Below are positions 1,959 to 64,000 of a stretch of 64,000 bases of DNA, in pieces. The notes beneath the pieces are model-generated. The model ran no database searches, was not told the origin of the DNA, and saw only the letters and a program-made list of their open reading frames with translations. Numbering within the stretch: the first letter of the stretch is position 1; each line of letters starts with the position of its first letter. This DNA is from Candidatus Pacearchaeota archaeon (GTDB taxonomy: Archaea > Nanobdellota > Nanobdellia > Pacearchaeales > GW2011-AR1), in the NCBI GenBank assembly GCA_016866995.1, contig VGKQ01000003.1, positions 118-64,117 on the forward strand, read 5' to 3'. A program made the position numbers and the translations under genes.

Positions 1959-3404
1959 ATGACTAAGTCTTTGGATACTCTTATAACGAGAATAGCTGGT
2001 TTTTACGCGGCTCGTCCAGATTTTACTCCAAAGAGAGCTAAAAGAGGAAGAACTATTGCTCAGAGATTTTCAAGAAGGTTTGCTCGTATCGCTCCTGAAG
2101 ATAGAGAGACTGCAAAAAAAATATTCTTGAGCTATATTTCAAAGGAGAGAGCTGAAAGAAAACCGAGTAAGGGTGTGAGAATAGAAAAACCCGCAAAAAA
2201 ATCTGATGAAAAAGTAAGAAGAGCAAGGACTGAAGAGGAACAATATGCAGAAAGAAGTTTCTATGATTTTTTTAAGAGTTATTTAGGATTTTATATTCAG
2301 GCATCTGAAGACAGGGAAAAATTAGGATTGTTCAATAGAGGTTTGTTGTATATCTTAGATGAAGTTTCAACAGATAGAACTGCAAGCAGTGTTTTGGCTA
2401 GATTTGGCAGTATATTAGAAATTCCTAATGATGCTATTTCTCTTTGGTTGCAGAGTTTGAGTCATCTTTCCAGGAGAGCTAAAGGAGGAGCCAGAACATA
2501 TGATGAAAAAATAGAGAGATACGCAGAAATTTCTACAAGACATCTTGTTGATTTTGAAGATTCTTATAGACACGTGCTTAGAGTTTTAGCTCAAGGTGAA
2601 CCTGTTTTTGGTGCTGAAGACTTTTTATTTAGATTTGCTGGAAATAAGAAGCGAGATGAAGCAGATGTTTTAGGGTGTTATAATACACTTAAAGAAGTTG
2701 ATTCAAGATTAAGGCCAGAAGTAGAGAGAGTCAGGGCGAAAGCTAGCAGAGTAAAAAATAATTCTGCTTTCTTGGCATCTGTTGACGAAAAAACTTACAG
2801 ATTAATCAAAGCAGGAAAAGGCAGAGAGTATCACCAATTAGCTACTTCTTTATTAAACCATCTTGTTGGTATGGCTTTTGGTCATAGAAGATTAGAGAGA
2901 GAACTTTCTTTATTAGAAGGAGTAGTTAATGCAAACCCAGAACTCATTGAAGATGTTTCTAGGAGACTTAAAACATTAGAATTTTCAGATTTGAATGTTC
3001 CTGCTTATCTTAAAGTTGTTACTCACTTGCAGGCGATGCAAGGCTTGACTCCTCAAGACAGAGAAAAATATATGGATATTTCAGTTGAATTATTCCAGGA
3101 TTATAATTATTGGAATAGGCAGTCAAATCCCCAGACAGTTAGAAGAAAGTGTCTTGGGGTGATTGATAAATTAAGTTCTTTGGAAGAAGATAAAAGAAAA
3201 ACTGCTCTTGATCTTGTTTATTCTTTAAAAGATAGAGTTAAAAGACACCCTAGATTAAGCCAACAACCTCCTCTTTATTTAGACAAAGCTATTGAAGTAA
3301 TAACTGAATCTGTTGCTGTTGATTCGTTCAAGGCTGTTGCATTTGTTAATCAAGTAATTAATTATCAGGATTCACCTAGAGGAGAAAAAGATGCAAAAGG
3401 TTAA
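1959..3404 (+). CDS. hypothetical helical protein inside the AAA+/vWA operon
   Basis: 481-aa ORF between the AAA+ and vWA genes. Its 3' end overlaps the next start by 14 nt. No family recognised. Confidence 0.55.
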   Translation: MTKSLDTLITRIAGFYAARPDFTPKRAKRGRTIAQRFSRRFARIAPEDRETAKKIFLSYISKERAERKPSKGVRIEKPAKKSDEKVRRARTEEEQYAERSFYDFFKSYLGFYIQASEDREKLGLFNRGLLYILDEVSTDRTASSVLARFGSILEIPNDAISLWLQSLSHLSRRAKGGARTYDEKIERYAEISTRHLVDFEDSYRHVLRVLAQGEPVFGAEDFLFRFAGNKKRDEADVLGCYNTLKEVDSRLRPEVERVRAKASRVKNNSAFLASVDEKTYRLIKAGKGREYHQLATSLLNHLVGMAFGHRRLERELSLLEGVVNANPELIEDVSRRLKTLEFSDLNVPAYLKVVTHLQAMQGLTPQDREKYMDISVELFQDYNYWNRQSNPQTVRRKCLGVIDKLSSLEEDKRKTALDLVYSLKDRVKRHPRLSQQPPLYLDKAIEVITESVAVDSFKAVAFVNQVINYQDSPRGEKDAKG

Positions 3405-5814
3405 AAAAGATAAAGATACTCCAAAAATTTCTTTGAAACCAGGAATTATTTGCAGTTATGCAAGTAAACTTTTGCCTTTTGTTCCTGATTTAGTTGGAAA
3501 AGTAAGTGCTGATGATTGGACACGGGCGCTGGATGTTGTTTATTTTAAGTATAAAGCAAATAAAACAGGGAGACATGATGTTAATAATTTTATAGATAGA
3601 CTTATGGGTTCTCTTAAGAGTATGCCCCCAAAAAGGATTCCTTATTGCTTAGGTGAATTAGAAAAGGTGAGAAGAGTAAGACTGGAGGATAGAAGAGATT
3701 CAGATTTAGAAGAAGTAATTCTTGATTCTGTTGAGAACAGGACAGGATTTTCAGAGCAAGAACTTTCACAGTTGCATAATGTTTTCTTAAACATGTATTC
3801 AGATGGTAACACTTGTTTTCCTTCAGCAATAGCTTTTTTTGATGAATTGGCTGAAGAAATGAGCAATGTGCCTGCTAAATTTAGAGGACAAGCAATTGAG
3901 TATGCTGGCAAGGTTGTATCCAAAGCTGTAGAAGAAGAAAGAGACCAGAGAGCCAGAGTAAGATTGCCATATGAACCTTTTGTTTATTTAAGACTAGCAA
4001 ACAAATTAGCTGTAAGTTATGCCCATGCAGCTAGAAAGAATATTCCTTCTTTAGGAGATGGATTTTCTGCTTGGATTGATAAAGCATTGAAAGAAAAATC
4101 TGCAAGAGAATTATTTGGTTATTTTGGAGATGAACACGATTATTTTGCAGCGGATTTAGAAGTTGCTGTTGGCGGATTAAGTTTTTCAAAAATAAACGAA
4201 AGACTTCTTACATATGTCCAGGCGCTTACAGGCAGGCATGTGAAAGTAAAAGATTCTGGCTCTCTTGAATTGAGATGTTCATTTGAAGGAGATACTTTTT
4301 TTCTTCCTAATGCAGTTAATGTTGCAGAAGATGAAGAAGGAAATTATAGTATTTACAAATCTCTGGCTTCTTATCAAGCAGGAGCATTTATGTTTGGAAC
4401 ATACAAGCCAGATTTAGAAAAGCTTGATGATGCAACTAGAATAAGAGTTGCAAATGGTTTGGGCGGATTTTTTGGGATATTTGAGAATCCTGATTTTGCA
4501 AGAGCCCTATTTGAGTTGCTTGAATTTACACGTATTGATTCAAGATTAGCTGATAAATTCCCAGGTCTTAGACAGGATTTAGATATTTTTAAAAAAACCC
4601 TTGTATCAAAGCCTCGTGAAAAAGGACAATTGATACTTGGAGGAATACTTGATTATGCATGCGGAGGAAAGCCAAAAAAATTAGAAGCACAAGTAACAGA
4701 AGCAGTTTCTTCATTGAGAAGCAAAGAAGCAGGTGTTGCTCAGACACTTAATGCAACAAATTTAATCTACACTATTTTGAGCAGGAGATTTAATTTAGCT
4801 AATCAAAGAGTTCCTGAAGATTTAATTGGTGTTGATTTAAAAGAAGTTATTGAAAAACTAGAAGAAGCTGAAAAAACATTTTTAGTTGCTAAGCCTTCTG
4901 CTGAAGAGCCTACAGGATACAGATTTAGATATGATGAGTGGGATTATGCTAAAAAGGAATATAAAAAAGGATTTGTGCAGGTTGTAGAAGTTCTGTATCC
5001 TTCTGCTGCTGATAATAGATATGTTGCAGAGGTTCTTCATAGTCATAGTAAAGTTATTCAAGCATTAAGAAGAGATTTTGAATCAATTGCCCCCCAAGAA
5101 TTTCAGAGAGTTAGAGGACAGGTTTCTGGAGATGTAGATTTTGATGCTTTAGTCAGGGCAAGAGCTGAGATGGCTGCTGGAGAAACCCCATCAGAAAAAG
5201 TTTATACTCGAAAGTTCAGAAATGATAGGTCTGTGACTTCTATGCTTGTATCAGATGGCAGCGGTTCATTAAGGTGGTTTATTGATACTGAAAATCCAAA
5301 TTTAAGGACAATAGACATTATCAAACAATCTTATATCTATTATGCAGAGGCATTAGGTATATTAGGAGATTCTTTTGCACTTGCAAATTTCTCAGGAGAG
5401 ACTGAAAAAAATGTTGAGTTTTATTTATTGAAAGATTTTGACCAGCCCTATGATTCTCCTGTTAGAATGGCAATTGGTTCTATAAAACCCTTAAAACAAA
5501 ATAGAGATGGTGCTGGTGTGCGACATGCTGCACATGTTCTTGCTGGGAGGCCTGAAAGAACAAAATTATTATTTTGTATGATGGAGGGGGTTCCCCATGA
5601 TTTTGGTTATGAAGGAAAGTATGCTGTTGAAGATACAAGAAAAGCACTAATTGAAGCTAAACATTTAGGATGTGTGCCTGTTGTTTTAGCTTTTGGACAT
5701 AAAATAGATGAAGGAGTAAGGTCTCTTTCAGAAAATGTTTTTTACAGAGAAGTCAGTGATTCTACTAGGCTTCCTTTGGTTGTTCCTGATTTGTATAGAA
5801 GAATGGCAATTTAG
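3391..5814 (+). CDS. CbbO/NorD-like protein with C-terminal von Willebrand factor A (vWA) domain
   Basis: 807 aa. The C-terminal ~200 aa has a MIDAS-like DxSxS (LVSDGSGS) and a vWA-like alternation of hydrophobic strands. Size and position next to a CbbQ/NorQ ATPase match Q/O or Q/D pairs. Confidence 0.7.
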   Translation: MQKVKKDKDTPKISLKPGIICSYASKLLPFVPDLVGKVSADDWTRALDVVYFKYKANKTGRHDVNNFIDRLMGSLKSMPPKRIPYCLGELEKVRRVRLEDRRDSDLEEVILDSVENRTGFSEQELSQLHNVFLNMYSDGNTCFPSAIAFFDELAEEMSNVPAKFRGQAIEYAGKVVSKAVEEERDQRARVRLPYEPFVYLRLANKLAVSYAHAARKNIPSLGDGFSAWIDKALKEKSARELFGYFGDEHDYFAADLEVAVGGLSFSKINERLLTYVQALTGRHVKVKDSGSLELRCSFEGDTFFLPNAVNVAEDEEGNYSIYKSLASYQAGAFMFGTYKPDLEKLDDATRIRVANGLGGFFGIFENPDFARALFELLEFTRIDSRLADKFPGLRQDLDIFKKTLVSKPREKGQLILGGILDYACGGKPKKLEAQVTEAVSSLRSKEAGVAQTLNATNLIYTILSRRFNLANQRVPEDLIGVDLKEVIEKLEEAEKTFLVAKPSAEEPTGYRFRYDEWDYAKKEYKKGFVQVVEVLYPSAADNRYVAEVLHSHSKVIQALRRDFESIAPQEFQRVRGQVSGDVDFDALVRARAEMAAGETPSEKVYTRKFRNDRSVTSMLVSDGSGSLRWFIDTENPNLRTIDIIKQSYIYYAEALGILGDSFALANFSGETEKNVEFYLLKDFDQPYDSPVRMAIGSIKPLKQNRDGAGVRHAAHVLAGRPERTKLLFCMMEGVPHDFGYEGKYAVEDTRKALIEAKHLGCVPVVLAFGHKIDEGVRSLSENVFYREVSDSTRLPLVVPDLYRRMAI

Positions 5815-15807: not shown

Positions 15808-16574
15808 AAATGGATAGAAGAAATTTCATAAAAAAAGGACTGGCAGCTGGAATACTTTATGCTTTATCTTCATTTGGAGGCTCGGATAATTTTGCTCAGC
15901 CGGCTGTTAACCAAGTTTCTCCAGCCCAGACTGAAAAGAAAGAAGAAAGAGTTATTATAAAGTATGCTGGAGAGAAAAAAGTTAAGAGTGTTCAAGATCC
16001 TGCAGAAATAAGGATAAGCAAGCGGGGAGAGCTTGAGAAATCAGTTGAAAAGAAAGGCGGAAGAGACAGCTTAGAAAGAGCAACTGGATATAAACTTATG
16101 CTGCCTCTTGACTCATTTCAGGATTACCTTCTTGGAAGATTTCACAATGAAGGCAGCCAGGGAGATTTATGGATTTATGGAGAAAAACCAGTTAGATTAA
16201 CCTCAAGCGAAGATGTAAGAGAATTTGCTTGCATTGTTCCCGGAGAGAAAGATAATTTTAGTGTTTATTGGATGGAAGATAGTTCTGGGCCAGCTTTAAG
16301 CAATCCTGACAATCACAAACAAGTTTATTGCGAGAGTTTTAAAATAAAAGAGGGTAAACCAGAGAGAACTGGAAGAAAAGTATATGTTCTTCCTGAAAGT
16401 ATGAAAGGCTGTGATATTGCTTATGATTCTGGGAGAAAGGAGCTTGTTCTTTATTTGGGAAGTGATGGAAATACAGGAGTGTATGTTGTTCCATTATCTG
16501 AACTCTCAAAAGAGAATCCAAAAATGTATCAGCCTATACAAACAGCAGAAGAAAATACAGGAGTGAAAAAATGA
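15804..16574 (+). CDS. Tat-signal exported protein, function unknown
   Basis: The N-terminus MKMDRRNFIKKGLAAG matches the twin-arginine motif. Start overlaps the upstream stop by 4 nt. Confidence 0.6.
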   Translation: MKMDRRNFIKKGLAAGILYALSSFGGSDNFAQPAVNQVSPAQTEKKEERVIIKYAGEKKVKSVQDPAEIRISKRGELEKSVEKKGGRDSLERATGYKLMLPLDSFQDYLLGRFHNEGSQGDLWIYGEKPVRLTSSEDVREFACIVPGEKDNFSVYWMEDSSGPALSNPDNHKQVYCESFKIKEGKPERTGRKVYVLPESMKGCDIAYDSGRKELVLYLGSDGNTGVYVVPLSELSKENPKMYQPIQTAEENTGVKK

Positions 16575-18787
16575 AGCTTGTGATATTTGTTTTATTAATT
16601 TTATTTATGACAGGATTGGTCTCTGCTGCAGAGAATATCTATCATTTTTCAGGATTTGTAAATCAGGGTGAGATTTCTAATTTAAATATTAATTATATTG
16701 GAGAGCATGATGAGAGTATTCAGGAATCTTATTTATATTATGCTGATTTTTTTGATTCTTCCGAGGCAGTTTTAAAATCATTTAACTTTGAAGTATATAA
16801 TTTCCCGTATTCTGAAGTACAAAGATTTAATTTTTATGCTGATGTCCCTCTGGATACAAGAAAGATTGTATTTTATAATCAGGGTTTGATTGTTAAGGAG
16901 GTTTTTATTTCTGATAATCCTCCCCAGGCAGATAATATTCGCGTTAATAACTTGGGAAATAATTCTTATAATGTTTCGTGGGAAGCTTCTGACACTGACA
17001 GTAATTTTCTTTCGTTTAGATTGTTTATAAGCAATGGGACAGGAAATGAAGTGCTGAGTGAAAGAATAAATCAAACTTCTTATTTATTTGACACAAGCTT
17101 TCTGAAGAGCGGAGATTACAAAATAATTGTTGAAGCATTTGACGGCTTTAATTTTGCTGAGTATGAATCTTATAGTTTTTTTGTTTCTGACAAAAAACCT
17201 GTTGCCAAGATTTATGGCTTGATTAATGGTTCTGTTTTTATAGCAGGAGAAGATATTTTTGCTGGAGGATACTGCTTTGATTCAGAGGGGGTATGTTCTG
17301 TTTTATGGAAGCTTAATTCTCAGGAAGCAGGAAATGAAAGCGAGATTGTTCTTGAGAACTTATCTTTAGGAAGCTATCTTCTTGAGTTAGAAGCTCAAGA
17401 TGATGATAAGAATCTTGTTCGAGATAGCGTGAATTTTTTGGTAGATAGTATATCAGAACCAGATGTTTCAGTTGAAAATATTTATATTTTTGGAGATAGG
17501 AAAATGAATCAAACTCATTATATTATTTCAGGATTTTTTAATATAAGGAATAATGCTTTTTGCAATATTTCTGTTTATGATAATGAAAGTTTAATTTACG
17601 AGGAAGAAGCAGAAATTCCTGCAAACAGCTATTATGGGGTTTATGCTCAATGGCTTCCTCAGCAACTTAATAATACAATCAGGATTGGGGCAAGGTGCAT
17701 GAATGAGAGCAGTATTGAGAATAATAATAAAATTATAAGCTTTCAAATTGAAGACCCTTTCAAGGCAGAGATAAATGATTGTATGAGCCTGAATGAAAGC
17801 AAAAAGACTTACTTCTTGAATTCAAGCATAGTTAATAATACTGCCAGGAGCAATTGTATAAATATTGCTGCTGAAAATATAACTCTCGACTGCCAGGGGA
17901 ATATGATTTCAAGCAGCAGCATTAGTGTAGGAATTTACTCTAATAAACGAGGGACAAGCATAAAAAATTGCAGTATAAGCCTTAACTTAAGCTATTCAAC
18001 TGGAATTAAATTAGAAAGAGCAGATAATTCTAAGATTTTTGGTAATATTTTAAAGAGTCGGGGCTATGGACTATATTTAGCCTATACTTCAAATTCAACA
18101 ATCGAGAATAATACTATAAATTATGGCAGTAATGGCATATATGTATATTCAGGGGCAGGTAATATTCTTCTGGGAAATAATTTAACCAATAATAGAGATA
18201 GAGGAATCTGGATTTACTTTAGTCCAAATAGCCTGCTTGCAAATAATATGGTTGCTAATTCTTCATACGGAATCTGGAATTATAATAGCCGAAATAGTTC
18301 AATAATAAACAACACCGCAAGCAAATCTATATATGGAATCTGGAATTATTTTAGTCCAAATAATATAATTATAAATAATTTAGCAAATAATAATAAAAAT
18401 TCAGGAATCTGGAATTATTACAGCCCCAATAGCTTAATTGCAAATAATCTAGCAAAAAACAATACATATGGAATCTGGAATTATTTTAGTCAAAACAGCT
18501 CAATAATAAACAACACCGCAAGCAATTCTATATATGGAATCTGGAATTATTTTAGTCAAAACAGCTCAATAATAAACAACACCGCAAGCAATTCTATATA
18601 TGGAATTTATTTCTTTGATTTTTATACTAATTCTATAAATAATGTTTCCAATAACATTGCCTGCAATAATACTTATAGAGATATATATTGTTATTATTCA
18701 AATATAACCGGAACAGGGAACAGGTTTGGGAGAGGAAAAGTTTATTGCTCTTCTCTAATTTACCCATTTAATTATAATTATTGTTAA
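16571..18787 (+). CDS. secreted surface protein with C-terminal right-handed beta-helix (NosD/PbH1-like) repeats
   Basis: Signal peptide MKLVIFVLLILFMTGLVSA. About ten 22-aa repeats of the type N-x-x-YGIWNYFS-x-N-S-x-I-x-NN. Start overlaps the upstream stop. Confidence 0.65.
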   Translation: MKLVIFVLLILFMTGLVSAAENIYHFSGFVNQGEISNLNINYIGEHDESIQESYLYYADFFDSSEAVLKSFNFEVYNFPYSEVQRFNFYADVPLDTRKIVFYNQGLIVKEVFISDNPPQADNIRVNNLGNNSYNVSWEASDTDSNFLSFRLFISNGTGNEVLSERINQTSYLFDTSFLKSGDYKIIVEAFDGFNFAEYESYSFFVSDKKPVAKIYGLINGSVFIAGEDIFAGGYCFDSEGVCSVLWKLNSQEAGNESEIVLENLSLGSYLLELEAQDDDKNLVRDSVNFLVDSISEPDVSVENIYIFGDRKMNQTHYIISGFFNIRNNAFCNISVYDNESLIYEEEAEIPANSYYGVYAQWLPQQLNNTIRIGARCMNESSIENNNKIISFQIEDPFKAEINDCMSLNESKKTYFLNSSIVNNTARSNCINIAAENITLDCQGNMISSSSISVGIYSNKRGTSIKNCSISLNLSYSTGIKLERADNSKIFGNILKSRGYGLYLAYTSNSTIENNTINYGSNGIYVYSGAGNILLGNNLTNNRDRGIWIYFSPNSLLANNMVANSSYGIWNYNSRNSSIINNTASKSIYGIWNYFSPNNIIINNLANNNKNSGIWNYYSPNSLIANNLAKNNTYGIWNYFSQNSSIINNTASNSIYGIWNYFSQNSSIINNTASNSIYGIYFFDFYTNSINNVSNNIACNNTYRDIYCYYSNITGTGNRFGRGKVYCSSLIYPFNYNYC
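18467..18598 (+). repeat. perfect 2 x 66-bp tandem duplication inside the beta-helix gene
   Basis: tatggaatctggaattattttagtcaaaacagctcaataataaacaacaccgcaagcaattctata occurs twice back to back (18467-18532 and 18533-18598). This equals two identical 22-aa repeat units. Confidence 0.9.
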
Positions 18788-58209: not shown

Positions 58210-58809
58210 ATGAAGGTTTCTGTATTTATAGACGGAAATAATTTTTATCATGGTTTGAGATATATTTATGGCAAAGAAGCAAGATTAAAAATGTTTGATT
58301 ATAAGGGGTTTATAGATTATCTCTTAAAAGACAGAGAGGTTTCAGAAATTTTTTATTATAATGCTGAGCTTGACAAATCAAAAAATCAAGAAAAATTTAA
58401 AAGTCAGAAAGAATTTTTTAATAATCTAAAGAAAATACCCAAATTTAATTTAATATTATGCAAGTTATTAAAAAGAAAAATAAAAGGAACAAACAAATTT
58501 TATTATGTCCTTAAAGAGGATGATATACATATGGCTGTTGATATAGTAGAAGGAGCTTGCGAAGATAATTTTGATGTTGCTATTCTTGTATCAGGAGATG
58601 GTGATTTTGTTCCTGCTGTGAGGGCTGTTCAGAAGAGAAGCAAGATTGTGGAAAATATTTATTTCAAAAAAAGCTCATCCAGAAACTTAAAACAACATTG
58701 CAACAAATCTTTAGAGCTAACAAAAGAAATTTTAGACAATTTTTCCAGTCATTATCAAAAAACAAACCCGTTAGGGCTTATTAGCAGAAAATCTAATGAT
58801 TTTCGCTAA
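58210..58809 (+). CDS. NYN/LabA-like (PIN-related) domain protein, copy 2
   Basis: VSVFIDGNNFYH and AILVSGDGDFVPAVRAVQ signatures. The stop codon lies inside the first dif-like site. Confidence 0.7.
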   Translation: MKVSVFIDGNNFYHGLRYIYGKEARLKMFDYKGFIDYLLKDREVSEIFYYNAELDKSKNQEKFKSQKEFFNNLKKIPKFNLILCKLLKRKIKGTNKFYYVLKEDDIHMAVDIVEGACEDNFDVAILVSGDGDFVPAVRAVQKRSKIVENIYFKKSSSRNLKQHCNKSLELTKEILDNFSSHYQKTNPLGLISRKSNDFR

Positions 58810-58827
58810 AAGTCTGTTATATTCAAT
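58800..58827 (+). repeat. dif-like site J0 (array boundary, degenerate left arm overlapping the NYN stop codon)
   Basis: TTTTCGCTAAA-AGTCTG-TTATATTCAAT. The right arm is identical to J3, J5 and J10. Confidence 0.45.
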
Positions 58828-58982
58828 TCTGGGTTTGCCTTACAGGCACGCTTCGCTACCGAAAATTCTAATGTTGTTATCTTCGTTAAAATCATAAAGA
58901 AAACTCTCACAAAATTGCTACGCAACTTTGCCTAACAAAATTTTAACGAAATTGTTGAAAAAAACCTCCACCAAAAGCACAC
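58827..58982 (+). repeat. left arm of the segmented inverted repeat bracketing ORF 59022-59426
   Basis: Blocks ttctgggtttgcc, ccgaaaattc, gttgttat, ttgttgaaaaa and aaaagcac(ac) are each the reverse complement of a block in 59427-59489. The left arm carries extra inserted segments. Confidence 0.8.
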
Positions 58983-58992
58983 AAACGATAGA

Positions 58993-59000
58993 TTTAAATA
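58993..59000 (+). promoter_or_regulatory. TATA box of module ORF 59022-59426
   Basis: tttaaata is centred about 26 nt upstream of the ATG, the spacing expected for a leaderless archaeal mRNA. Confidence 0.5.
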
Positions 59001-59021
59001 ATTCTTAATTTAAATAAATAT

Positions 59022-59426
59022 ATGATGCCAAAAAATAACAAACCAGATGGTGTTTCAAATGCTTTAATCCTACTTTGGATAAGTCTTGGAGTAGGAGTTC
59101 TAAACAGCATAATTAATTTTTCAAATTCTGTTGATTTGGCACAAGGATATGGTTCTGGATTTGTTATTTTTGTAACTCTTTTCACATTGGTGTTTATGGC
59201 TTTCTTTATCTATATGATAGGGCAAGGAAAGAATTGGGCAAGAATCACTTTTTTGGTTCTATTCATAATTGGAATTCCTTTTTCCGTATTGCCTGCAATA
59301 GTCTTGCTTGTAACAAACCCAATCTCTGCAATGTTTTCAGCAGGCATAACTATATTGCAATTAATCGCACTAATTTTCTTATTCCAAAAAAGTTCTTCTG
59401 ATTGGTTTCATTCTATGAAAAAATAG
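59022..59426 (+). CDS. small membrane protein (module J0-J1)
   Basis: 134 aa, about 4 hydrophobic helices, own TATA box. Confidence 0.6.
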   Translation: MMPKNNKPDGVSNALILLWISLGVGVLNSIINFSNSVDLAQGYGSGFVIFVTLFTLVFMAFFIYMIGQGKNWARITFLVLFIIGIPFSVLPAIVLLVTNPISAMFSAGITILQLIALIFLFQKSSSDWFHSMKK

Positions 59427-59489
59427 TGTGCTTTCCAAAAATAATTTTTCAACAACTACAATAACAACGAATTTTCGGCAAACCCAGAA
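59427..59489 (+). repeat. right arm of the segmented inverted repeat bracketing ORF 59022-59426
   Basis: gtgtgcttt, tttttcaacaa, ataacaac, gaattttcgg and (gg)caaacccagaa. About 51 matched nt in five colinear blocks. Confidence 0.8.
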
Positions 59490-59491
59490 CT

Positions 59492-59530
59492 CGAGATTTT
59501 TCCCTTCGGGAACATTGCATTAAAATCTCG
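59492..59530 (+). other. module-terminal stem-loop preceding J1
   Basis: cgagatttt ... aaaatctcg (9 bp) enclosing the inner hairpin ttccc-ttc-gggaa. It ends 14 nt before the J1 left arm. Confidence 0.6.
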
Positions 59531-59544
59531 TCCTCATTTCATTC

Positions 59545-59572
59545 GGAGAAACTAACAGGGCTTATACGCGAT
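59545..59572 (+). repeat. dif-like site J1
   Basis: GGAGAAACTAA-CAGGGC-TTATACGCGAT. Confidence 0.55.
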
Positions 59573-59723
59573 AGCTCTTCTGAAGAAGACTACCTCTGCG
59601 GGGAAATTTATATTATCATCAGCAAGAATTTTTTAAAGTTAGCCCCTTGACCACGCAACAAGTTGCTCTCGCTTCATTATAAATCCATTTCATTCCTTTA
59701 TACATTCAGCTCGGGGGACTTAA
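59562..59723 (+). repeat. noncoding module R-div (diverged relative of module R) between J1 and J2
   Basis: About 160 bp with no ORF. It shares with R the 3' end ATTCAGCTCG..GGGA.T.TAA and an internal AGCCCC..ACCAC...TTGCTC.CGC block. Confidence 0.5.
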
Positions 59724-59740
59724 CACTAATTAGTTTCAAT
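59713..59740 (+). repeat. dif-like site J2
   Basis: GGGGGACTTAA-CACTAA-TTAGTTTCAAT. Confidence 0.55.
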
Positions 59741-59806
59741 AAGCGGGCGAGCTAAAAGTTAGTCAAAATTTTCAATTTTGAAGAAATAAATAAAATAGGG
59801 CAAGTC

Positions 59807-60049
59807 TTACTTCTTTTGTCTGTTGATTAATTCAGGTTCGCCAAAATTTCCATTACCATCATTTTTTGCAACAAATGTATCATAATCAGCAAAATCCCAA
59901 TGAGATTCACCATAATTTCCTGCGACAACTTCTTGTTTTTTATCATTATTCAAATCAACATAAGCATTATAATTTCTTGGTTGGTTGTCGCAACCAGCTA
60001 AAGCTAAAACCAATGCTCCAATTCCCAGTGCTTTTCTCATAAATCTCAT
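59807..60049 (-). CDS. small lipoprotein with FG-GAP-like motif (module J2-J3)
   Basis: Lipobox LALAGC. DLNNDKKQEVV and NDGNGNFG resemble FG-GAP/VCBS repeat cores. Confidence 0.6.
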   Translation of the reverse strand: MRFMRKALGIGALVLALAGCDNQPRNYNAYVDLNNDKKQEVVAGNYGESHWDFADYDTFVAKNDGNGNFGEPELINRQKK

Positions 60050-60071
60050 AGTTGATTGTAATTGACTTATC

Positions 60072-60079
60072 TTTATAAA
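60072..60079 (-). promoter_or_regulatory. TATA box of module ORF 59807-60049
   Basis: tttataaa is centred about 26 nt upstream of the minus-strand ATG at 60049. Confidence 0.5.
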
Positions 60080-60136
60080 TCTTTTGGTTAATTTACTACT
60101 TTATAGTTAATATTGATAACGCCGAATTCTGAACTC

Positions 60137-60153
60137 AAAATCCTTCGGATTTT
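60137..60153 (+). other. module-terminal hairpin preceding J3
   Basis: aaaatcc-ttc-ggatttt, a perfect 7-bp stem ending 2 nt before the J3 left arm. An outer bulged pairing CGCCGAA (60120-60126) with TTCGG-gt-CG reaches into the arm. Confidence 0.6.
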
Positions 60154-60155
60154 TC

Positions 60156-60183
60156 GGGTCGGATAACACAGCTTATATTCAAT
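60156..60183 (+). repeat. dif-like site J3
   Basis: GGGTCGGATAA-CACAGC-TTATATTCAAT. Confidence 0.65.
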
Positions 60184-60323
60184 TTCTTCACAATATTCTT
60201 TGTTCAGAAACTTTGGGCTCGATATACTAATCCCAAGAAACCACCAAAGCCCCACCACCCTTAATTGCTCGCCCAACCTTCCAGAGGAATTATTAACATA
60301 ATTCAGCTCGTCAGGGAATATAA
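60173..60323 (+). repeat. noncoding module R copy 1 (J3 to J4)
   Basis: 151 bp. Identical to copy 2 except for one C in a C-run (tcccaag versus tccccaag). Starts TTATATTC and ends GAATATAA (8-bp terminal inverted repeat). Confidence 0.9.
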
Positions 60324-60340
60324 CAGCGATTATGCACAAT
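60313..60340 (+). repeat. dif-like site J4
   Basis: AGGGAATATAA-CAGCGA-TTATGCACAAT. Confidence 0.65.
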
Positions 60341-60434
60341 AAATTTTTGGGCTCGGGCAGAATATAGTCTCGCAAATTTTCAATTTGCTTGTTATTTAGA
60401 ATAAGGGGCTTTGGCTAAAAGAAAAAAACTCTGC

Positions 60435-60884
60435 TTATCGTCTTCCGAAGCTTAATTCTCTAGTCCTTTCTGCATATGCTTTTCCATCGTTATGATCCTC
60501 CCCTATTCTTAATCTTCCGTTCTCATCGCGATTTGGAAAGAAATGAGGATTATAAAATGGATGAACAAGTTCATTATCATAAAGAACACTTCCATCTTTT
60601 GCATGAATAGACATGATTGCATCGGGTAATCCCAAAAATGGAATTCCAGTTGTACTTTTCATAATTTTTCTTCCTTGAAAAATATCCATATCTTGTATTT
60701 CTTCAGGAACTCTTTCTAAATGGGTTACAACCACATTAGAGTAGGGCGTTACTTCTTTTAATTTTCCCCTAATACATTTTCGTTTATTAAATTGATTAAC
60801 AAAAATAACACTTACAAATTCTCCAAGATGTTCAGGAAGTCTTTCCATTGCTTCAATTCTTTCAGCTTGATTCATCATTTTCAT
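60435..60884 (-). CDS. hypothetical protein (module J4-J5)
   Basis: 149-aa ORF, no family recognised. Confidence 0.55.
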   Translation of the reverse strand: MKMMNQAERIEAMERLPEHLGEFVSVIFVNQFNKRKCIRGKLKEVTPYSNVVVTHLERVPEEIQDMDIFQGRKIMKSTTGIPFLGLPDAIMSIHAKDGSVLYDNELVHPFYNPHFFPNRDENGRLRIGEDHNDGKAYAERTRELSFGRR

Positions 60885-61038
60885 TTACCTTATAAATAGA
60901 ATAAACAGCCCCTATTTAAACCTTTCGATTTTAACTACTTAGAAAAGACAACATAAAAGCCAAAGCCCCTAAAAACGAGCCCTCGCCCAAAAATTTACTT
61001 TCTCAGAAAACTTCGTTTTCTTCGAACTTTTTCACTCT

Positions 61039-61083
61039 GAAATTTCCAGCCTCTTTTCGCTTTCGCTCAAAGGGGGAAATTTC
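61039..61083 (+). other. module-terminal stem-loop preceding J5
   Basis: gaaatttcc ... ggaaatttc (9 bp), ending 7 nt before the J5 left arm. Confidence 0.55.
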
Positions 61084-61090
61084 GAGGAAA

Positions 61091-61118
61091 AAGGAAACTA
61101 ACACCAATTATATTCAAT
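61091..61118 (+). repeat. dif-like site J5
   Basis: AAGGAAACTAA-CACCAA-TTATATTCAAT. Confidence 0.65.
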
Positions 61119-61259
61119 TTCTTCACAATATTCTTTGTTCAGAAACTTTGGGCTCGATATACTAATCCCCAAGAAACCACCAAAGCCCCACCACCCTTAA
61201 TTGCTCGCCCAACCTTCCAGAGGAATTATTAACATAATTCAGCTCGTCAGGGAATATAA
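61108..61259 (+). repeat. noncoding module R copy 2 (J5 to J6)
   Basis: 152 bp. See copy 1. Confidence 0.9.
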
Positions 61260-61276
61260 CACCAATTAGCCAAAAT
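61249..61276 (+). repeat. dif-like site J6
   Basis: AGGGAATATAA-CACCAA-TTAGCCAAAAT. Confidence 0.6.
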
Positions 61277-61330
61277 TTTTTCCTGCTGGAAAAAACTCGA
61301 GTGAAATTAATCAATTGACCGCCCCCGCCC

Positions 61331-61343
61331 GATGGACAAGCGC
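61331..61343 (+). repeat. left copy of the 13-bp perfect inverted repeat bracketing ORF 61422-61868
   Basis: gatggacaagcgc, preceded by ccccgccc and followed by TAAC. Confidence 0.85.
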
Positions 61344-61363
61344 TAACGATAATTATTTAAAGC
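61336..61363 (+). repeat. possible dif-like site J6a (weak arms, overlaps the TATA region of the downstream ORF)
   Basis: ACAAGCGCTAA-CGATAA-TTATTTAAAGC. Confidence 0.35.
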
Positions 61364-61421
61364 ATACTTCCTTACAGATTCTAACCGAAAGGGCGAAAGA
61401 GTTCTGTGATAAAATTTGAAA

Positions 61422-61868
61422 ATGGACAATACAATTCAACCAGAATTAAGCAGATTTGCTAAATTTGTAGTTGGCGCCGTAGGTTCTGCCGTTGTTGCAC
61501 TTTGCACCTATCTTCCGATAATGAGCTTTACTGAAAAATATAATTCTTCATATCCTGAAATACAATCTAAGCTAAATTCTTGGGTGCAAAGTTCTCCAAG
61601 AAATGAAGTACAAGAAAGAAAAGATAGATTGCGCCAACTTGAAAGACAAGTTTTAGAAAAGGCTCAAATGTTTGATGGAAAACTGGGTCTGTCTTTCGAA
61701 GACCAAGCAAATCTGGCTAGAGAGTTGGGATATAAGGGAACTCTTTCGCAAGGAAGAAGATTCTATTTTGGGCAAGATATAAGAGGATTTCCAGAATCTC
61801 AACTTATTATTGGAAATGAATCTTTAGAAGTTAGTGAAGAAACTGCCCAAAATTACTTGAAAAAATAA
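61422..61868 (+). CDS. hypothetical protein with one N-terminal TM helix (module J6-J7)
   Basis: 148 aa from the ATG at 61422 (the track uses the TTG at 61416). The stop TAA lies inside an ATAAC half-site. Confidence 0.55.
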   Translation: MDNTIQPELSRFAKFVVGAVGSAVVALCTYLPIMSFTEKYNSSYPEIQSKLNSWVQSSPRNEVQERKDRLRQLERQVLEKAQMFDGKLGLSFEDQANLARELGYKGTLSQGRRFYFGQDIRGFPESQLIIGNESLEVSEETAQNYLKK

Positions 61869-61869
61869 C

Positions 61870-61882
61870 GCGCTTGTCCATC
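61870..61882 (+). repeat. right copy of the 13-bp perfect inverted repeat bracketing ORF 61422-61868
   Basis: gcgcttgtccatc, preceded by ATAAC and followed by ccccgccc-TAAC. Confidence 0.85.
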
Positions 61883-61911
61883 CCCCGCCCTAACAATAGT
61901 CTAATTTTACT

Positions 61912-61985
61912 CGCCCTATCAGGAGTATTCGCCTCAGCTCTGAAAAAGCTCCACTTTTTGCGGGTCGCTCACGAGGATAGGGTCG
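61912..61985 (+). other. module-terminal stem-loop whose 3' strand runs into the J7 left arm
   Basis: cgcCCTATC ... GATAGGGtcg, 9 positions with one mismatch. An inner aaaaag-ctcca-cttttt hairpin is present. Confidence 0.5.
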
Positions 61986-62007
61986 GATAACACCAATTAT
62001 GTCTAAT
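61980..62007 (+). repeat. dif-like site J7 (best match to bacterial dif)
   Basis: GGGTCGGATAA-CACCAA-TTATGTCTAAT versus E. coli dif GGTGCGCATAA-TGTATA-TTATGTTAAAT. 17 of 22 arm positions are identical by hand count. Confidence 0.7.
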
Positions 62008-62088
62008 TGTTCGAAGGCACTAAACTTAGAAATTAAAAGAGAGTTAAAGATGGCACTTCAATGCCCCCGACCACCTACCCTCAAATTC

Positions 62089-62361
62089 TCAATTCTTGTA
62101 AATCTTATCGTGATGATCAAAATCCGAGAAAAAGATAAAATTATTCATTTTGTCAAATTTGAATACAAGAACAAAATGCCCAACATGAGCTCTCTTAAAT
62201 TCTTTCATGTCATATCTTAAATTTTTATAATGCTCGATGTCAGGGCTATTTAAGACTTCATTCATCTTATTAAGAAGATTTTCGTAAAGTTGCTTGTCTT
62301 TTTTCTCAAGTTTAGCAAGAATTCTATCAAACTCTTTACTAGTCTTATATTGCCTCGGCAT
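62089..62361 (-). CDS. relE: RelE/ParE-family toxin (module J7-J8)
   Basis: 90 aa. The KLEKKDKQLYENLLNKMNEVL ... KNLRYDMKEFKRAHVGHFVLVFKFD ... FDHHDKIY pattern is typical of RelE/StbE toxins. Confidence 0.7.
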   Translation of the reverse strand: MPRQYKTSKEFDRILAKLEKKDKQLYENLLNKMNEVLNSPDIEHYKNLRYDMKEFKRAHVGHFVLVFKFDKMNNFIFFSDFDHHDKIYKN

Positions 62362-62362
62362 T

Positions 62363-62608
62363 TTACCTCTTTTCTATCTTCTTTCTTAATTGTTTGATAG
62401 AATTAAGGGTTTCGCCATAACCTTCTTCTTCAATTTTTCTTAATTTTTCTAAGTATTCAGGCCTTAATTCAGGTTCTATAATATTTGCTCCACATTCTAT
62501 AACAATTTTGGCAATAGCTTCACTTTTAGTCTTTAGATTATATCTAGCTTTAACTATATTCAAAATTTGATTAGCTTCATTAGGAATTTCAATCATTGCT
62601 TGAACCAT
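62363..62608 (-). CDS. putative antitoxin (DUF2683-like) of the RelE module
   Basis: 81 aa, ending 1 nt before the toxin start. The N-terminus IEIPNEANQILNIVKARYNLKTKSEAIAKIV resembles archaeal RelE-partner antitoxins. Confidence 0.55.
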   Translation of the reverse strand: MVQAMIEIPNEANQILNIVKARYNLKTKSEAIAKIVIECGANIIEPELRPEYLEKLRKIEEEGYGETLNSIKQLRKKIEKR

Positions 62609-62820
62609 TTTTACGATTTTATATATTTAGTATAAATATCTTATATATATGAAGTATATAAACCTTTCGTTTTTGAAAAAATTTACAAACAGCCAACCAA
62701 AATTTCTTCTTTTTCAAAAAAAGAAGCAAAAACCGCGCGCGTGCCCCAAAACGAAAACTATACTGCCGACGACTTTTGATTTTTTGCCTTCGCCGAACGT
62801 TGCGCTCTCGCCTTTGGCTC

Positions 62821-62848
62821 GGGGCGTATAACACAGCTTATAAGAAAT
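62821..62848 (+). repeat. dif-like site J8
   Basis: GGGGCGTATAA-CACAGC-TTATAAGAAAT. Confidence 0.65.
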
Positions 62849-62853
62849 ATTAC

Positions 62854-63201
62854 TCACGATTTTTGGGCTTTATTAAAACCTGGGACACCATAGAAATTAA
62901 CAGTATAAAGTCTGACAGATTTTGTGCCTAAAACACGCTGGTCTTCAAAGTTTCCAGGATACCCAAAATCTACTCTCATTAATCCTGCTTTTTCATCTTT
63001 AAGAACTAGAAAATATTCCAAGCCATTTGCTTCCGCAAGCATTCTCGCATCATCAATAACTCCTTGACTTTCTCGCCTAACATAAGTCTTTGTCAAAGCT
63101 AAACATACACTAGCAAGATTAAATGGTTTATTATCTGGTCCAACTATTGTTCCATTGCGTCCTTGAGTAAGCTGTTGCACCATGTTTTGAAGAAGTAACA
63201 T
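62854..63201 (-). CDS. hypothetical protein (module J8-J9)
   Basis: 115-aa ORF. A TATA-like tttaaaaata lies very close to the first ATG, so the internal ATG at 63183 (MVQQL) may be the real start. Confidence 0.5.
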   Translation of the reverse strand: MLLLQNMVQQLTQGRNGTIVGPDNKPFNLASVCLALTKTYVRRESQGVIDDARMLAEANGLEYFLVLKDEKAGLMRVDFGYPGNFEDQRVLGTKSVRLYTVNFYGVPGFNKAQKS

Positions 63202-63362
63202 AATATTTTTAAATCTTTTCTATTTGTGACTACCCTTGAGTTTTAATTGTAATTTTTAATAGCCCAAAAATCGTTCCGTCATAACTCAAAAAATTTATTG
63301 TCTCGTGGCGTTCCGCTCCACTCCACTACTCAACATAAATTTTTTGGTTTTTTCTGCGAAAA

Positions 63363-63390
63363 AACGAATATAACACCAATTATAATCAAT
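63363..63390 (+). repeat. dif-like site J9
   Basis: AACGAATATAA-CACCAA-TTATAATCAAT. Confidence 0.65.
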
Positions 63391-63529
63391 TTCTTCACAA
63401 TATTCTTTGTTCAGAAACTTTGGGCTCAATATACTAATCCCCAAGAAACCACCAAAGCCCCACCACCCTTAATTGCTCGCCCAACCTTCCAGAGGAATTA
63501 TTAACATAATTGGAAGTCAGGGAATATAA
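63380..63529 (+). repeat. noncoding module R copy 3 (J9 to J10)
   Basis: 150 bp. Differs from copies 1 and 2 at ttataatc versus ttatattc, gctcaat versus gctcgat, and a replaced patch cataattggaagtcaggg versus cataattcagctcgtcaggg. Confidence 0.9.
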
Positions 63530-63546
63530 CAGGCGTTATATTCAAT
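63519..63546 (+). repeat. dif-like site J10 (internally palindromic)
   Basis: AGGGAATATAA-CAGGCG-TTATATTCAAT. GAATATAAC-AGGC-GTTATATTC is a perfect 9-bp inverted repeat. Confidence 0.7.
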
Positions 63547-63583
63547 TTGCCCTACGGCGACTTAGAAGTAGAAAAATTGGGCT

Positions 63584-64000
63584 TTATTTACTAAAATATT
63601 GCAATATCATACTTGTTAAACCATACGCTGCTGCTCCAGATGCAAGTACTAAACCGGTTGTTAGCAATAGATGTTCTTTTAATAGAAATCTGTGGTGGAG
63701 CATAATTTCATCAGCAGCCTCCCCCATTTCAGAATCCACTCTTCCAGCGCATACATCATTTAAATATCTACGACCTTGTGGGCCTGATTTTAGAATTTTC
63801 CTTATTCTGTCCTTCGTATCAGGACAATTATTAAGTGCATATAGGGCCCAATCCAAAAATCTAAAAAATAAATTACTTGCATCGCCTGACCCTCTATCAT
63901 TATATATGCTCAACAACCTTGAAGCTGCAACAGAAGGCAATTTTCTTGCATCCTCATGAAGTATAGATTCAAAAAATGCTTCAACCTCGTCAATTGATGG
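63584..64000 (-). CDS. hypothetical protein with C-terminal TM helix, 5' end outside the window (module after J10)
   Basis: The frame stays open from the TTG at 63940 to the window edge (PSIDEVEAFFESILHEDARK ...), so the gene is truncated by the window. Confidence 0.5.
   Translation of the reverse strand, partial: PSIDEVEAFFESILHEDARKLPSVAASRLLSIYNDRGSGDASNLFFRFLDWALYALNNCPDTKDRIRKILKSGPQGRRYLNDVCAGRVDSEMGEAADEIMLHHRFLLKEHLLLTTGLVLASGAAAYGLTSMILQYFSK

What the first reader, a model, noticed from the sequence alone, without database searches (positions are those of the whole stretch)
61322..61894. Second gene-in-a-hairpin module: 13-bp perfect inverted repeat with TAAC at both inner edges, as if the ORF was inserted into a hairpin loop
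Seen directly:
- ccccgccc-GATGGACAAGCGC-TAAC (61322-61347) precedes the promoter and ORF 61422-61868.
- The ORF stop lies in ATAAC-GCGCTTGTCCATC-ccccgccc-TAAC (61865-61894).
- Deleting everything between the two TAAC motifs would leave a perfect hairpin GATGGACAAGCGC-TAAC-GCGCTTGTCCATC flanked by direct ccccgccc repeats.
- The left TAAC is the core of the weak dif-like site J6a (CTAA-CGATAA-TTAT).
- The right one is a left-half-only site (ATAA-CGCGCT, with no TTAT arm).
- The sequence that begins the insert (AACGATAATTATTTAAAG) resembles the one upstream of the other + strand module ORF (AACGATAGATTTAAATA, 58984-59000).

Inference: ORF-plus-promoter units may be mobilised as sub-modules that land at TAAC inside palindromes. 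Alternatively the palindrome is part of the recombination substrate.
Basis: partly seen in the sequence, partly recalled or inferred. Interest (0 to 1): 0.6.

Follow-up and report, generated by a model that had tools for sequence, protein, structure and literature searches.

The report
Hairpin-framed archaeal gene cassette
The 13-bp inverted repeat is real; it is the inner part of a conserved, base-pair-maintained "hairpin frame" that encloses swappable genes in integron-like cassette arrays of tiny DPANN archaea, while the TAAC motifs are only a promoter element and a stop codon.

Summary
The repeat is there: GATGGACAAGCGC at 61331-61343 and its complement at 61870-61882, each abutted on the outside by ccccgccc. 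It is not chance.

It is not a stand-alone hairpin. It is the inner block of a roughly 47-nt segmented inverted repeat (outer arms 61298-61317 and 61894-61913). This repeat frames the promoter plus ORF of one cassette lying between two strong dif-like sites (61250, 61981).

The same frame, CCCCRCCC-GAWGG-private arm ... private arm-CCWTC-CCCCRCCC, occurs in at least 17 of 401 related Nanoarchaeota genomes.
- Nine complete copies enclose eight unrelated cargoes in either orientation.
- Their arms covary strongly: 92% of cells paired against 64% when shuffled.

- The C-rich 8-mers differ between the two sides in 7 of 9 frames, so they are not a target duplication.
- The TAACs are not conserved. 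The left one belongs to a BRE/TATA promoter and the right one is the stop codon plus C.
- "J6a" scores like a random TAAC.

No empty allele was found.

Best reading: the two arms are halves of an attC-like hairpin around the dif-like crossover site. This is an undescribed Xer-type analogue of integron cassettes. The mechanism is inferred, not shown.

The parts
61250..61276 (+). dif-like site J6 (GGGAATATAA-CACCAA-TTAGCCAAAAT), left boundary of the cassette
   Evidence: Matrix score 29.9. It is one of 12 same-oriented sites in the array.
61277..61294 (.). small local hairpin TTTTTCCtgctGGAAAAA directly after the site
   Evidence: The same hairpin follows the site in G211 (L040 3047-3064).
61298..61317 (.). 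outer left arm of the frame, CGAGTGAAATTAATCAATTG
   Evidence: Pairs with 61894-61913 at 16 of 20 positions. Homologous frames carry different but internally complementary outer arms.
   Evidence: CCCCRCCC is conserved at this position in 18 frames.
61331..61343 (.). inner left arm. GATGG (61331-61335) is the conserved frame part and ACAAGCGC (61336-61343) is the variable part.
61345..61362 (+). BRE/TATA-type promoter AACGATAATTATTTAAAG, which contains the left TAAC
   Evidence: CGATAATTATTTAAAG is identical in G149. AACGATAAC/T-TT recurs after the left arm in G288 and G338, with shorter or variant forms in G304 and G374b. CGAAAGGTTTAAATA-type boxes precede the minus-strand cassette genes.
61422..61868 (+). 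cargo ORF of 148 aa with an N-terminal hydrophobic helix and unknown function
   Evidence: It has 35 distant homologues. The G149 homologue has 85 aa.
61870..61882 (.). inner right arm GCGCTTGTCCATC, starting 1 nt after the stop codon
61883..61890 (+). right C-rich motif CCCCGCCC
   Evidence: Conserved as CCCC[G/A/T]CCC after CCWTC in eight of nine frames; G065 has the shorter CCCTCCC.
61894..61913 (.). outer right arm CAATAGTCTAATTTTACTCG
61910..61980 (+). accessory region starting with ACTC and lying in front of the next site
   Evidence: The right arm is followed directly by ACTC, ACTT or, one base later, CTCT in most cassettes. This region is 80-97% identical to accessory regions in G149, G072 and G211.
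61981..62007 (+). dif-like site J7 (GGTCGGATAA-CACCAA-TTATGTCTAAT), right boundary of the cassette
   Evidence: Matrix score 26.8.

Best explanation
**What is shown**
- The 13-bp repeat is the innermost block of a roughly 47-nt segmented inverted repeat, here called a frame.
- The frame encloses the promoter plus ORF of one cassette. That cassette lies between two directly oriented XerA/dif-type sites in a 12-site array of a Nanoarchaeota (DPANN) genome.
- The frame layout is: site, outer arm, C-rich CCCCRCCC, GAWGG, variable arm, [cargo], variable arm, CCWTC, CCCCRCCC, outer arm, ACTC accessory region, next site.
- This layout is conserved across many genera. Its arms are kept complementary by covariation, and unrelated cargoes occupy it in either orientation.

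**What is inferred**
- The two arms are the halves of one hairpin-forming attachment region, analogous to an integron attC.
- In an excised cassette circle, or in single-stranded DNA, the arms would pair and clamp a loop of about 80-115 nt. That loop holds the accessory region and the dif-like crossover site.
- The C-rich 8-mers would form a conserved unpaired bubble.
- Recombination at the dif-like site, presumably by one of the two XerA paralogues, would split the hairpin, so that in the array its halves flank the gene.

**The TAACs**
- They are incidental. The left one belongs to the BRE-like AACGATAA promoter element. The right one is the stop codon TAA plus C.
For: **Array and generality**
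- The dif-like sites were mapped.
- In 31 cassettes from 9 arrays in 8 genomes, the best left-versus-right inverted repeat scores a median of 26 against 19 for cross-cassette pairs. 68% exceed the null 95th percentile.

**Fixed geometry, independent of gene strand**
- The left arm starts 0-25 nt after the site in many cassettes (exactly 0 in eight).
- The outermost right arm commonly ends about 46-65 nt, in some cassettes about 80-100 nt, before the next site, and ACTC follows it.

**Folding (DNA parameters)**
- The joined circle junction of this cassette folds at -38.7 kcal/mol, z = -5.6. The two real genomic junctions give z = -1.0 and -0.6.
- Over 31 cassettes, own junctions average -35.8 against -26.9 kcal/mol for cross junctions, p = 1.8e-7.

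**Frame family**
- CCCCRCCCGAWGG occurs in 17 of 401 family genomes; the reversed-pattern control gives 5 hits.
- Nine complete frames hold 8 unrelated cargoes of 312-1529 bp, 6 on the plus and 3 on the minus strand.
- G339 and G288 share the same inner arms but hold unrelated genes.
- In the inner stem, 92.3% of cells pair against 64.4% when shuffled (0 of 500 shuffles reach it). 9 of 13 pairs change on both sides. Slid controls give 36-46%.

**Homologous cassette in G149**
- It keeps the whole layout with compensatory changes: GATGGA/TCCATC becomes GAAGGA/TCCTTC, and the outer arms become a perfect 14/14.

**A second frame family, around ORF 59022-59426**
- It shows the same behaviour in 5 instances.

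**Recombinases**
- Both tyrosine recombinases pass the NCBIfam XerA equivalog.
- A Xer-type gene lies within about 1 kb of the first site of the array in this genome's second array and in four relatives.
Against: - No circle junction, excision product or array polymorphism was seen.
- Xer recombinases normally act on duplex sites and need no hairpin.
- In the model the stem only clamps the site; it does not form it.
- This array has no recombinase gene on its own contig.
- The arms reach right up to the promoter and the stop codon, which recombination alone does not require.
- In G149 and G211, framed units lie next to other genes without an intact dif-like site between them.
- Earlier reports of this scan that made the same mechanistic claim on other genomes were later marked doubtful.
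Confidence: 0.55

Rival explanations
1. Cargo insertion into a pre-existing hairpin. Empty cassettes carry a hairpin, and promoter-plus-ORF units are captured at its apex by an unknown loop-targeting or break-repair mechanism. The arms would then be older than the gene. This can coexist with the main explanation as its cassette-genesis step.
For: - The same frame holds unrelated cargo, with homology ending exactly at the inner arm edges. G339 and G288 share the arms CAGTGC/GCACTG but hold different genes.
- The second frame family holds inserts of 345-1588 bp.
- A gene-less hairpin, TTTTTCCtgctGGAAAAA, sits right after J6.
- Removing the unit would leave a module of about 171 bp, in the size class of the array's gene-less modules of 156-168 bp.
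Against: - No empty frame of this family was found (the smallest insert is 312 bp).
- TAAC is not conserved at the junctions.
- No consistent junction signature exists. Among the inverted-repeat pairs lying close to the sites, no flanking direct repeat exceeds 3 bp in any other cassette.
- The innermost arm bases differ between most frames, so they are not simply inherited from one hairpin.
Confidence: 0.2
2. A non-autonomous transposon (MITE or mobile insertion cassette) with 13-bp terminal inverted repeats and an 8-bp target duplication. The equivalent form is a nested site-specific integration through a loxP-like 13-8-13 site whose core is ccccgccc.
For: - The sequence signature in this genome is exactly terminal inverted repeat plus duplication.
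- The joined ends would read 13-8-13.
- The genome has one rve and one DDE_Tnp_1 transposase.
Against: - The inverted repeat continues beyond the supposed duplication on both sides.
- The two C-rich 8-mers differ from each other in 7 of 9 homologous frames, and the motif is conserved across genera.
- There is no second copy of the 13-mer in the genome.
- Neither transposase has related ends.
- The same frame carries 8 different cargoes.
Confidence: 0.05
3. A transcription-level element. The arms would act as insulators or terminators, as an operator pair, or as a 5'/3' pairing of a read-through RNA that is then processed.
For: - One arm always abuts the stop codon and the other lies just upstream of the BRE/TATA box.
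- Some arms contain T5 runs, for example AAATTTTTGGGC.
Against: - The upstream arm lies outside the cargo's own transcript.
- Arm sequences differ between cassettes, so no single regulator can read them.
- The geometry is fixed relative to the dif-like sites, not to the gene's direction.
- The 13-bp arm here has no T run.
Confidence: 0.08

Closest known systems
Integron gene cassettes with attC sites (including the archaeal integrons of Ghaly et al. 2022, PMC9668308)
   Same: - Arrays of mostly single-gene, often toxin-antitoxin or unknown-function cassettes lie between same-oriented recombination sites.
- A tyrosine recombinase gene often lies beside the array.
- The recombination element is an imperfect palindrome whose structure is conserved by covariation more than its sequence.
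- The same site family is attached to unrelated genes.
- In integron arrays the gene is also bracketed by a split repeat (TTRRRY ... RYYYAAC).
   Different: - The recombinases are XerA-type and lack the IntI-specific domain.
- The crossover site is dif-like (ATAA-N6-TTAT) and sits inside the palindrome, not at its end, so large arms end up on both sides of the gene.
- Cargo lies in either orientation and carries its own promoter.
- A conserved C-rich bubble is present.
Archaeal XerA/dif chromosome-dimer resolution (Cortez et al. 2010, PMC2958812)
   Same: - The sites have two inverted arms and a 6-bp spacer, with the ATAA/TTAT inner core.
- The enzymes are XerA equivalogs.
- That paper also notes inverted repeats flanking Thermococcales dif.
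   Different: - Here there are 12 and 7 tandem sites rather than one.
- The sites separate accessory genes, and there are two XerA paralogues.
pdif modules of Acinetobacter plasmids, and integrative elements that exploit Xer (for example CTX phage, whose folded single-stranded attP is used by XerCD). This comparison rests on my own knowledge.
   Same: - Small gene modules are bounded by Xer-type sites.
- There is a precedent for Xer acting on a hairpin folded from single-stranded DNA.
   Different: - pdif sites alternate in orientation, whereas here all sites point the same way.
- In CTX the hairpin itself forms the Xer site, whereas here the hairpin would only enclose it.
MITEs and mobile insertion cassettes; loxP/FRT 13-8-13 sites
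   Same: Locally the element shows 13-bp perfect inverted ends abutted by an 8-bp direct repeat.
   Different: - The repeat extends past the 8-mers.
- The 8-mers are a conserved motif, not a duplication.
- The element is single-copy, and no matching transposase exists.

Membership tests
Integron (IntI/attC) | Integrase with the IntI-specific additional domain | tested here: not met
   Both recombinases (269 and 278 aa) score 210.7 and 209.3 bits against TIGR02249, whose cut-off is 265. Each match comes in two stretches. Both pass the XerA_Arch equivalog, at 236.6 and 267.7 bits against a cut-off of 220.
Integron (IntI/attC) | attC site with R''(RYYYAAC)/R'(GTTRRRY) boxes and crossover at the end of the hairpin | tested here: not met
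   The conserved core is ATAAC-N5-TTAT between arms of 10-11 nt. The arms lie on both sides of it. No attC covariance model was available.
Integron (IntI/attC) | Tandem cassettes between same-oriented sites, with site structure conserved by covariation | tested here: met
Integron (IntI/attC) | The recombination substrate is a folded single strand | not testable with these tools
   Only folding predictions are available.
Xer/dif | XerA-family recombinase | tested here: met
   The best solved relative is P. abyssi XerA, 4a8e, E = 4.6e-49.
Xer/dif | Site of two inverted arms with a 6-bp spacer and an ATAA/TTAT core | tested here: met
   The core TAACAGCGATTA occurs in 70 of 201 family genomes.
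Xer/dif | A single site per chromosome, used for dimer resolution | tested here: not met
   There are 12 sites on C3 and 7 on C4.
pdif modules | Flanking sites in alternating (inverted) orientation | tested here: not met
   All sites are on the same strand.
DDE transposon / MITE / mobile insertion cassette | Identical target duplication flanking the terminal inverted repeats | tested here: not met
   The 8-mers agree in only 2 of 9 frames, and the inverted repeat continues outside them.
DDE transposon / MITE / mobile insertion cassette | Several copies, and a transposase with matching ends | tested here: not met
   The genome is 85.6% complete.
IS200/IS605 (hairpin-guided insertion at a tetranucleotide) | Y1 (HUH) transposase | tested here: not met
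   PF01797 is absent from the genome.

The most novel reading that the evidence does not exclude
- DPANN archaea (Nanoarchaeota) would carry a gene-capture platform built on XerA/dif instead of IntI/attC.
- Each cassette would have a long hairpin-forming attachment region. It consists of a covarying stem, a conserved C-rich/C-rich internal bubble and a GAWGG/CCWTC clamp.
- The region would be read as folded DNA and split by crossover at an internal dif-like site.
- The apex of the same hairpin would be the point where new promoter-plus-gene units are exchanged, in either orientation.
- That would expose the cassette-genesis step that is still unknown for integrons.
Probability: 0.35. Interest if true: 0.85.

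Novelty: new variant of a known kind. Interest (0 to 1): 0.64.

Why it matters
- How integron cassettes are made, that is, how a gene acquires its attC, is an old open question.
- Here the conserved recombination hairpin and the variable cargo have sharp, comparable boundaries in many genomes. Unrelated genes sit in either orientation inside one frame, so the joining step can be studied by comparison.
- It would also show that the housekeeping Xer/dif machinery has been turned into an integron-like platform in archaea with very small genomes. That is a possible main route of gene gain for them.
- For annotation, the result warns against reading these paired repeats as transposon ends or terminators.

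Tried and rejected
- **Other copies of the 13-mer.** In the genome there are only chance one-mismatch hits inside coding repeats.
- **Empty alleles.** One pattern covering both the single-ccccgccc and the empty-hairpin form found nothing in metagenome contigs.
- **Strain variation.** All contigs carrying the ORF are identical to the window.
- **Known RNA families.** None lies in three arrays.
- **Transposon reading.** Rejected, as set out under the rival explanations.
- **J6a as a real cassette boundary.** I considered this because G149 has an upstream cassette ending just before the homologous region. I dropped it because the matrix score is at background and the outer arms fit J6/J7 as the boundaries.
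- **G-quadruplex or i-motif reading of the C-rich pair.** Pure speculation, and not pursued.
- **More homologues of the cargo with the frame.** Only G149 and its duplicate metagenome contig turned up.
- **Literature.** Four searches found no description of such arrays. The held supplements of Ghaly et al. do not contain the core motifs.

Full report
**1. The observation**

Reading the window and the repeat finder (pair I16) confirm the following.
- A perfect 13-bp inverted repeat: GATGGACAAGCGC at 61331-61343 and GCGCTTGTCCATC at 61870-61882.
- Each arm is abutted on its outer side by ccccgccc (61323-61330 and 61883-61890).
- TAAC lies at 61344-61347, 61866-61869 and 61891-61894.
- The enclosed ORF is 61422-61868 (148 aa; an alternative TTG start lies at 61416).

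Everything else is exact.

With 32.6% GC, a 13-mer of this composition plus an adjacent all-G/C 8-mer repeat is expected about 3e-6 times in the 1.06-Mb genome (my own calculation). A cruder count of inverted repeats of at least 11 bp with flanking direct repeats of at least 5 bp gives 13 real cases against 3-5 in shuffles.

**2. Context**

The genome is a 1.06-Mb, 70-contig, 85.6%-complete assembly. The closest cassette homologue comes from a record titled "Nanoarchaeota archaeon". Identical contigs come from JGI metagenome samples.

From 58801 to the contig end there are 12 sites, all on the + strand, of the form 10-nt arm, 6-nt spacer starting with CA, 11-nt arm, for example GGGAATATAA-CAGGCG-TTATATTCAAT. 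An identical longer contig, L010, carries the region beyond the contig end. The ATAA-N6-TTAT core is the Xer/dif hallmark (PMC2958812 for archaea; the site sequences themselves are from my own knowledge).

The sites separate several kinds of unit:
- single small genes;
- a ParE/DUF2683 pair;
- three copies of a gene-less module of about 130 nt between sites.

A second array of 7 sites lies on contig C4, starting about 1 kb from a tyrosine recombinase gene and ending at ftsY.

Both recombinases of the genome pass the NCBIfam XerA equivalog and fail the integron-integrase cut-off. The best solved relative is P. abyssi XerA.

The core TAACAGCGATTA occurs in 70 of 201 genomes of the family, with almost no hits for the reversed control. 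Same-oriented arrays are present in eight further loci I fetched, several beside a Xer-type gene.

**3. The bracket is a rule, not a peculiarity of this ORF**

Comparison of left and right cassette ends:
- I took 31 cassettes of at least 330 bp from 9 arrays.
- The best inverted repeat between the left and right ends scores a median of 26, against 19 for left and right ends taken from different cassettes.
- 68% exceed the null 95th percentile.
- A reversed-but-not-complemented control gives 19.

Geometry:
- The left arm starts 0-25 nt after the 27-nt site in many cassettes, and exactly 0 in eight cassettes.
- The outermost right arm commonly ends about 46-65 nt, in some cassettes about 80-100 nt, before the next site.
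- The right arm is followed directly by ACTC, ACTT or, one base later, CTCT.
- This holds whichever strand carries the gene.

Folding with DNA parameters:
- Joining each cassette's right end to its own left end, as in an excised circle, gives a mean of -35.8 kcal/mol.
- Foreign combinations give -26.9 kcal/mol (Mann-Whitney p = 1.8e-7).
- For this cassette the circle junction gives -38.7 kcal/mol, z = -5.6. The two real genomic junctions give z = -1.0 and -0.6.

**4. Anatomy of this cassette**

The inverted repeat does not stop at the ccccgccc.
- CGAGTGAAATTAATCAATTG (61298-61317) pairs with CAATAGTCTAATTTTACTCG (61894-61913) at 16 of 20 positions.
- The arms are therefore about 47 nt long.
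- The two C-rich 8-mers form a same-sense, unpairable bubble between an outer and an inner stem.
- The cassette boundaries are J6 (61250) and J7 (61981).

**5. Relatives of this frame**

A DNA search of 401 family genomes found one homologous cassette, in G149 (loci L038 and L044; an identical metagenome contig is L043). Its gene is an 85-aa version of the ORF, 46% identical over the N-terminal 79 residues in the MAFFT alignment. Both flanks are homologous, and the layout is kept with coordinated changes:
- the inner arms change from GATGGA/TCCATC to GAAGGA/TCCTTC;
- the outer arms are replaced by a perfect GATTTAGATTTTAG/CTAAAATCTAAATC;
- the C-rich motif changes from CCCCGCCC to CCCCACCC on both sides;
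- none of the three TAACs is kept (TAGGCG, TAAG and TACC in their places).

G211 has the same outer arms, the same C-rich motifs and GAAGG/CCTTC. Its cargo is an unrelated 129-aa gene on the opposite strand, with its own perfect 14-bp inner arms.

The motif CCCCRCCCGAWGG occurs at 18 places in 17 of 401 genomes, against 5 hits for the reversed control. Nine frames are complete.
- They hold eight unrelated cargoes of 312-1529 bp, six on the + strand and three on the - strand.
- G339 and G288 share the inner arms CAGTGC/GCACTG but carry unrelated genes.
- Homology ends exactly at the inner arm edges.

On an ungapped alignment of the 13 inner pairs:
- 92.3% of cells pair, against 64.4% in shuffles (0 of 500 shuffles reach the observed value);
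- 9 of 13 pairs change on both sides;
- the covariation score is 0.716 against 0.16;
- slid controls pair at 36-46%;
- the W of GAWGG always matches the W of CCWTC.

The variable base of the two C-rich 8-mers agrees only in G000 and G149 and differs in the other seven frames. The pair is therefore a conserved frame motif, not a target duplication or an identity core.

The other "gene in a hairpin" of this window, around ORF 59022-59426, belongs to a second frame family. It has five instances in four genomes, inserts of 345-1588 bp, and compensatory changes such as TTGTTG/CAACAA to TTTTTG/CAAAAA.

**6. The TAACs and "J6a"**

- The sequence after the left arm, AACGATAATTATTTAAAG, is a BRE/TATA-type promoter.
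- CGATAATTATTTAAAG is identical in G149.
- AACGATAAC/T-TT follows the left arm in G288 and G338, with shorter or variant forms in G304 and G374b.
- CGAAAGGTTTAAATA-like boxes precede the minus-strand cassette genes.
- This also explains the resemblance to 58984-59000.
- The right inner TAAC is the stop codon plus C. Other frames have TAAG, TAATC or TAAAC at that position.
- On the site matrix, J6a scores -21.5, which is the mean of random TAACs.

**7. The cargo**

The ORF has no Pfam family above threshold. A word-based search found no near relative. A full HMMER scan found 35 distant relatives of similar size. The four I looked up lie in ordinary contexts, one between rrp4 and rrp41 of the exosome operon, with no cassette or frame context in the gene maps; the one whose flanks I read (L045) carries no bracketing repeat. 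The repeat therefore belongs to the cassette, not to the gene family.

**8. Interpretation**

Shown:
- a conserved frame, maintained by base pairing, at fixed positions relative to dif-like sites, and enclosing interchangeable cargo.

Inferred:
- the arms are halves of an attC-like hairpin that closes around the accessory region and the dif-like site in an excised or single-stranded cassette;
- crossover at the internal site splits the hairpin.

Why pairing between the arms is the constraint:
- Arm sequences differ between cassettes, so a sequence-specific protein cannot be what keeps them complementary.
- The loop on the site side has a nearly constant size (about 80-115 nt). The loop on the gene side varies fivefold.

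Against the model:
- no mobility was observed;
- Xer normally needs no hairpin;
- earlier reports of this scan with the same model on other genomes were later marked doubtful.

The transposon reading fails on four counts:
- the repeat continues beyond the supposed duplication;
- the 8-mers are discordant in the relatives;
- the element is single-copy;
- no matching transposase exists.

Insertion of cargo at the hairpin apex remains possible as the way such cassettes are made. It does not happen at TAAC.

I found no description of such arrays in four literature searches.

Noticed in passing
G000 contig C4, locus L014 2299-9986: A second array of 7 same-oriented dif-like sites (L014 4048-8713) lies between a divergently placed XerA-type recombinase gene (2299-3108, minus strand) and ftsY. 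Its cassettes show the same bracketing repeats, for example TAAATTTTTGGGCGA / TCGCCCAAAAATTTA around gene 4211-4576.
   Followed up: partly
window 58801-64000 and arrays in L014, L017, L026, L020, L025, L022, L016: The non-coding parts of the arrays are C-rich on the strand that carries the sites. GC skew is -0.17 overall and -0.37 in gene-less modules, whatever the gene orientation. CCACCC/CCGCCC-type tracts recur.
   Followed up: partly
about 50-100 nt left of most sites, e.g. window 59490-59545 and 64360-64423; L014 4640-4698: A conserved accessory region starts with ACTC(T)GCGG. It contains a stem-loop with a TTCG-type loop and a (G/A)TTGCA(C/T)T or CTTGCAGG motif. The same 8-mer often recurs just right of the site, followed by CCCAAATTT. 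No Rfam family matches.
   Followed up: partly
window 58827-59489; L016 8780-9300 and 10216-10789; L019 513-2280; L025 5799-6650: A second conserved frame family (AACGAAATTGTTGAAAAA ... TTTTTCAACAACTACAATAACAACGAATTTTCGG) encloses inserts of 345-1588 bp (different lengths; one checked gene differs) in four genomes, with compensatory changes in three stem blocks.
   Followed up: yes
window 61396-61436: The 5' leader just upstream of the ORF start (gaaagagttctgtgataaaatttgaaaATG) gives 85-100% identical short BLAST matches in dozens of family genomes (query positions about 106-164). It may be a shared leader or ribosome-binding module of cassette genes.
   Followed up: no
L044 (G149) 1220-2226: Two units, each with its own bracketing repeats, lie in tandem between two sites. 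Only a truncated accessory stub (ACTCTTCGCTC) lies between them. This suggests fusion of two cassettes by loss of a site.
   Followed up: partly
L047 / L048 1501-1980: A distant homologue (159 aa) of the cassette ORF lies between rrp4 and rrp41 in an archaeal exosome operon. This hints at where the cargo family came from.
   Followed up: no
family genomes: Many matches to the dif core TAACAGCGATTA lie within the first 60 nt of contigs. These arrays therefore often break assemblies and are probably under-represented in MAGs.
   Followed up: no
window 18188-18655: A tandem repeat of about 201 nt (3 copies, 66-77% identical) lies inside the long ORF 16571-18787.
   Followed up: no
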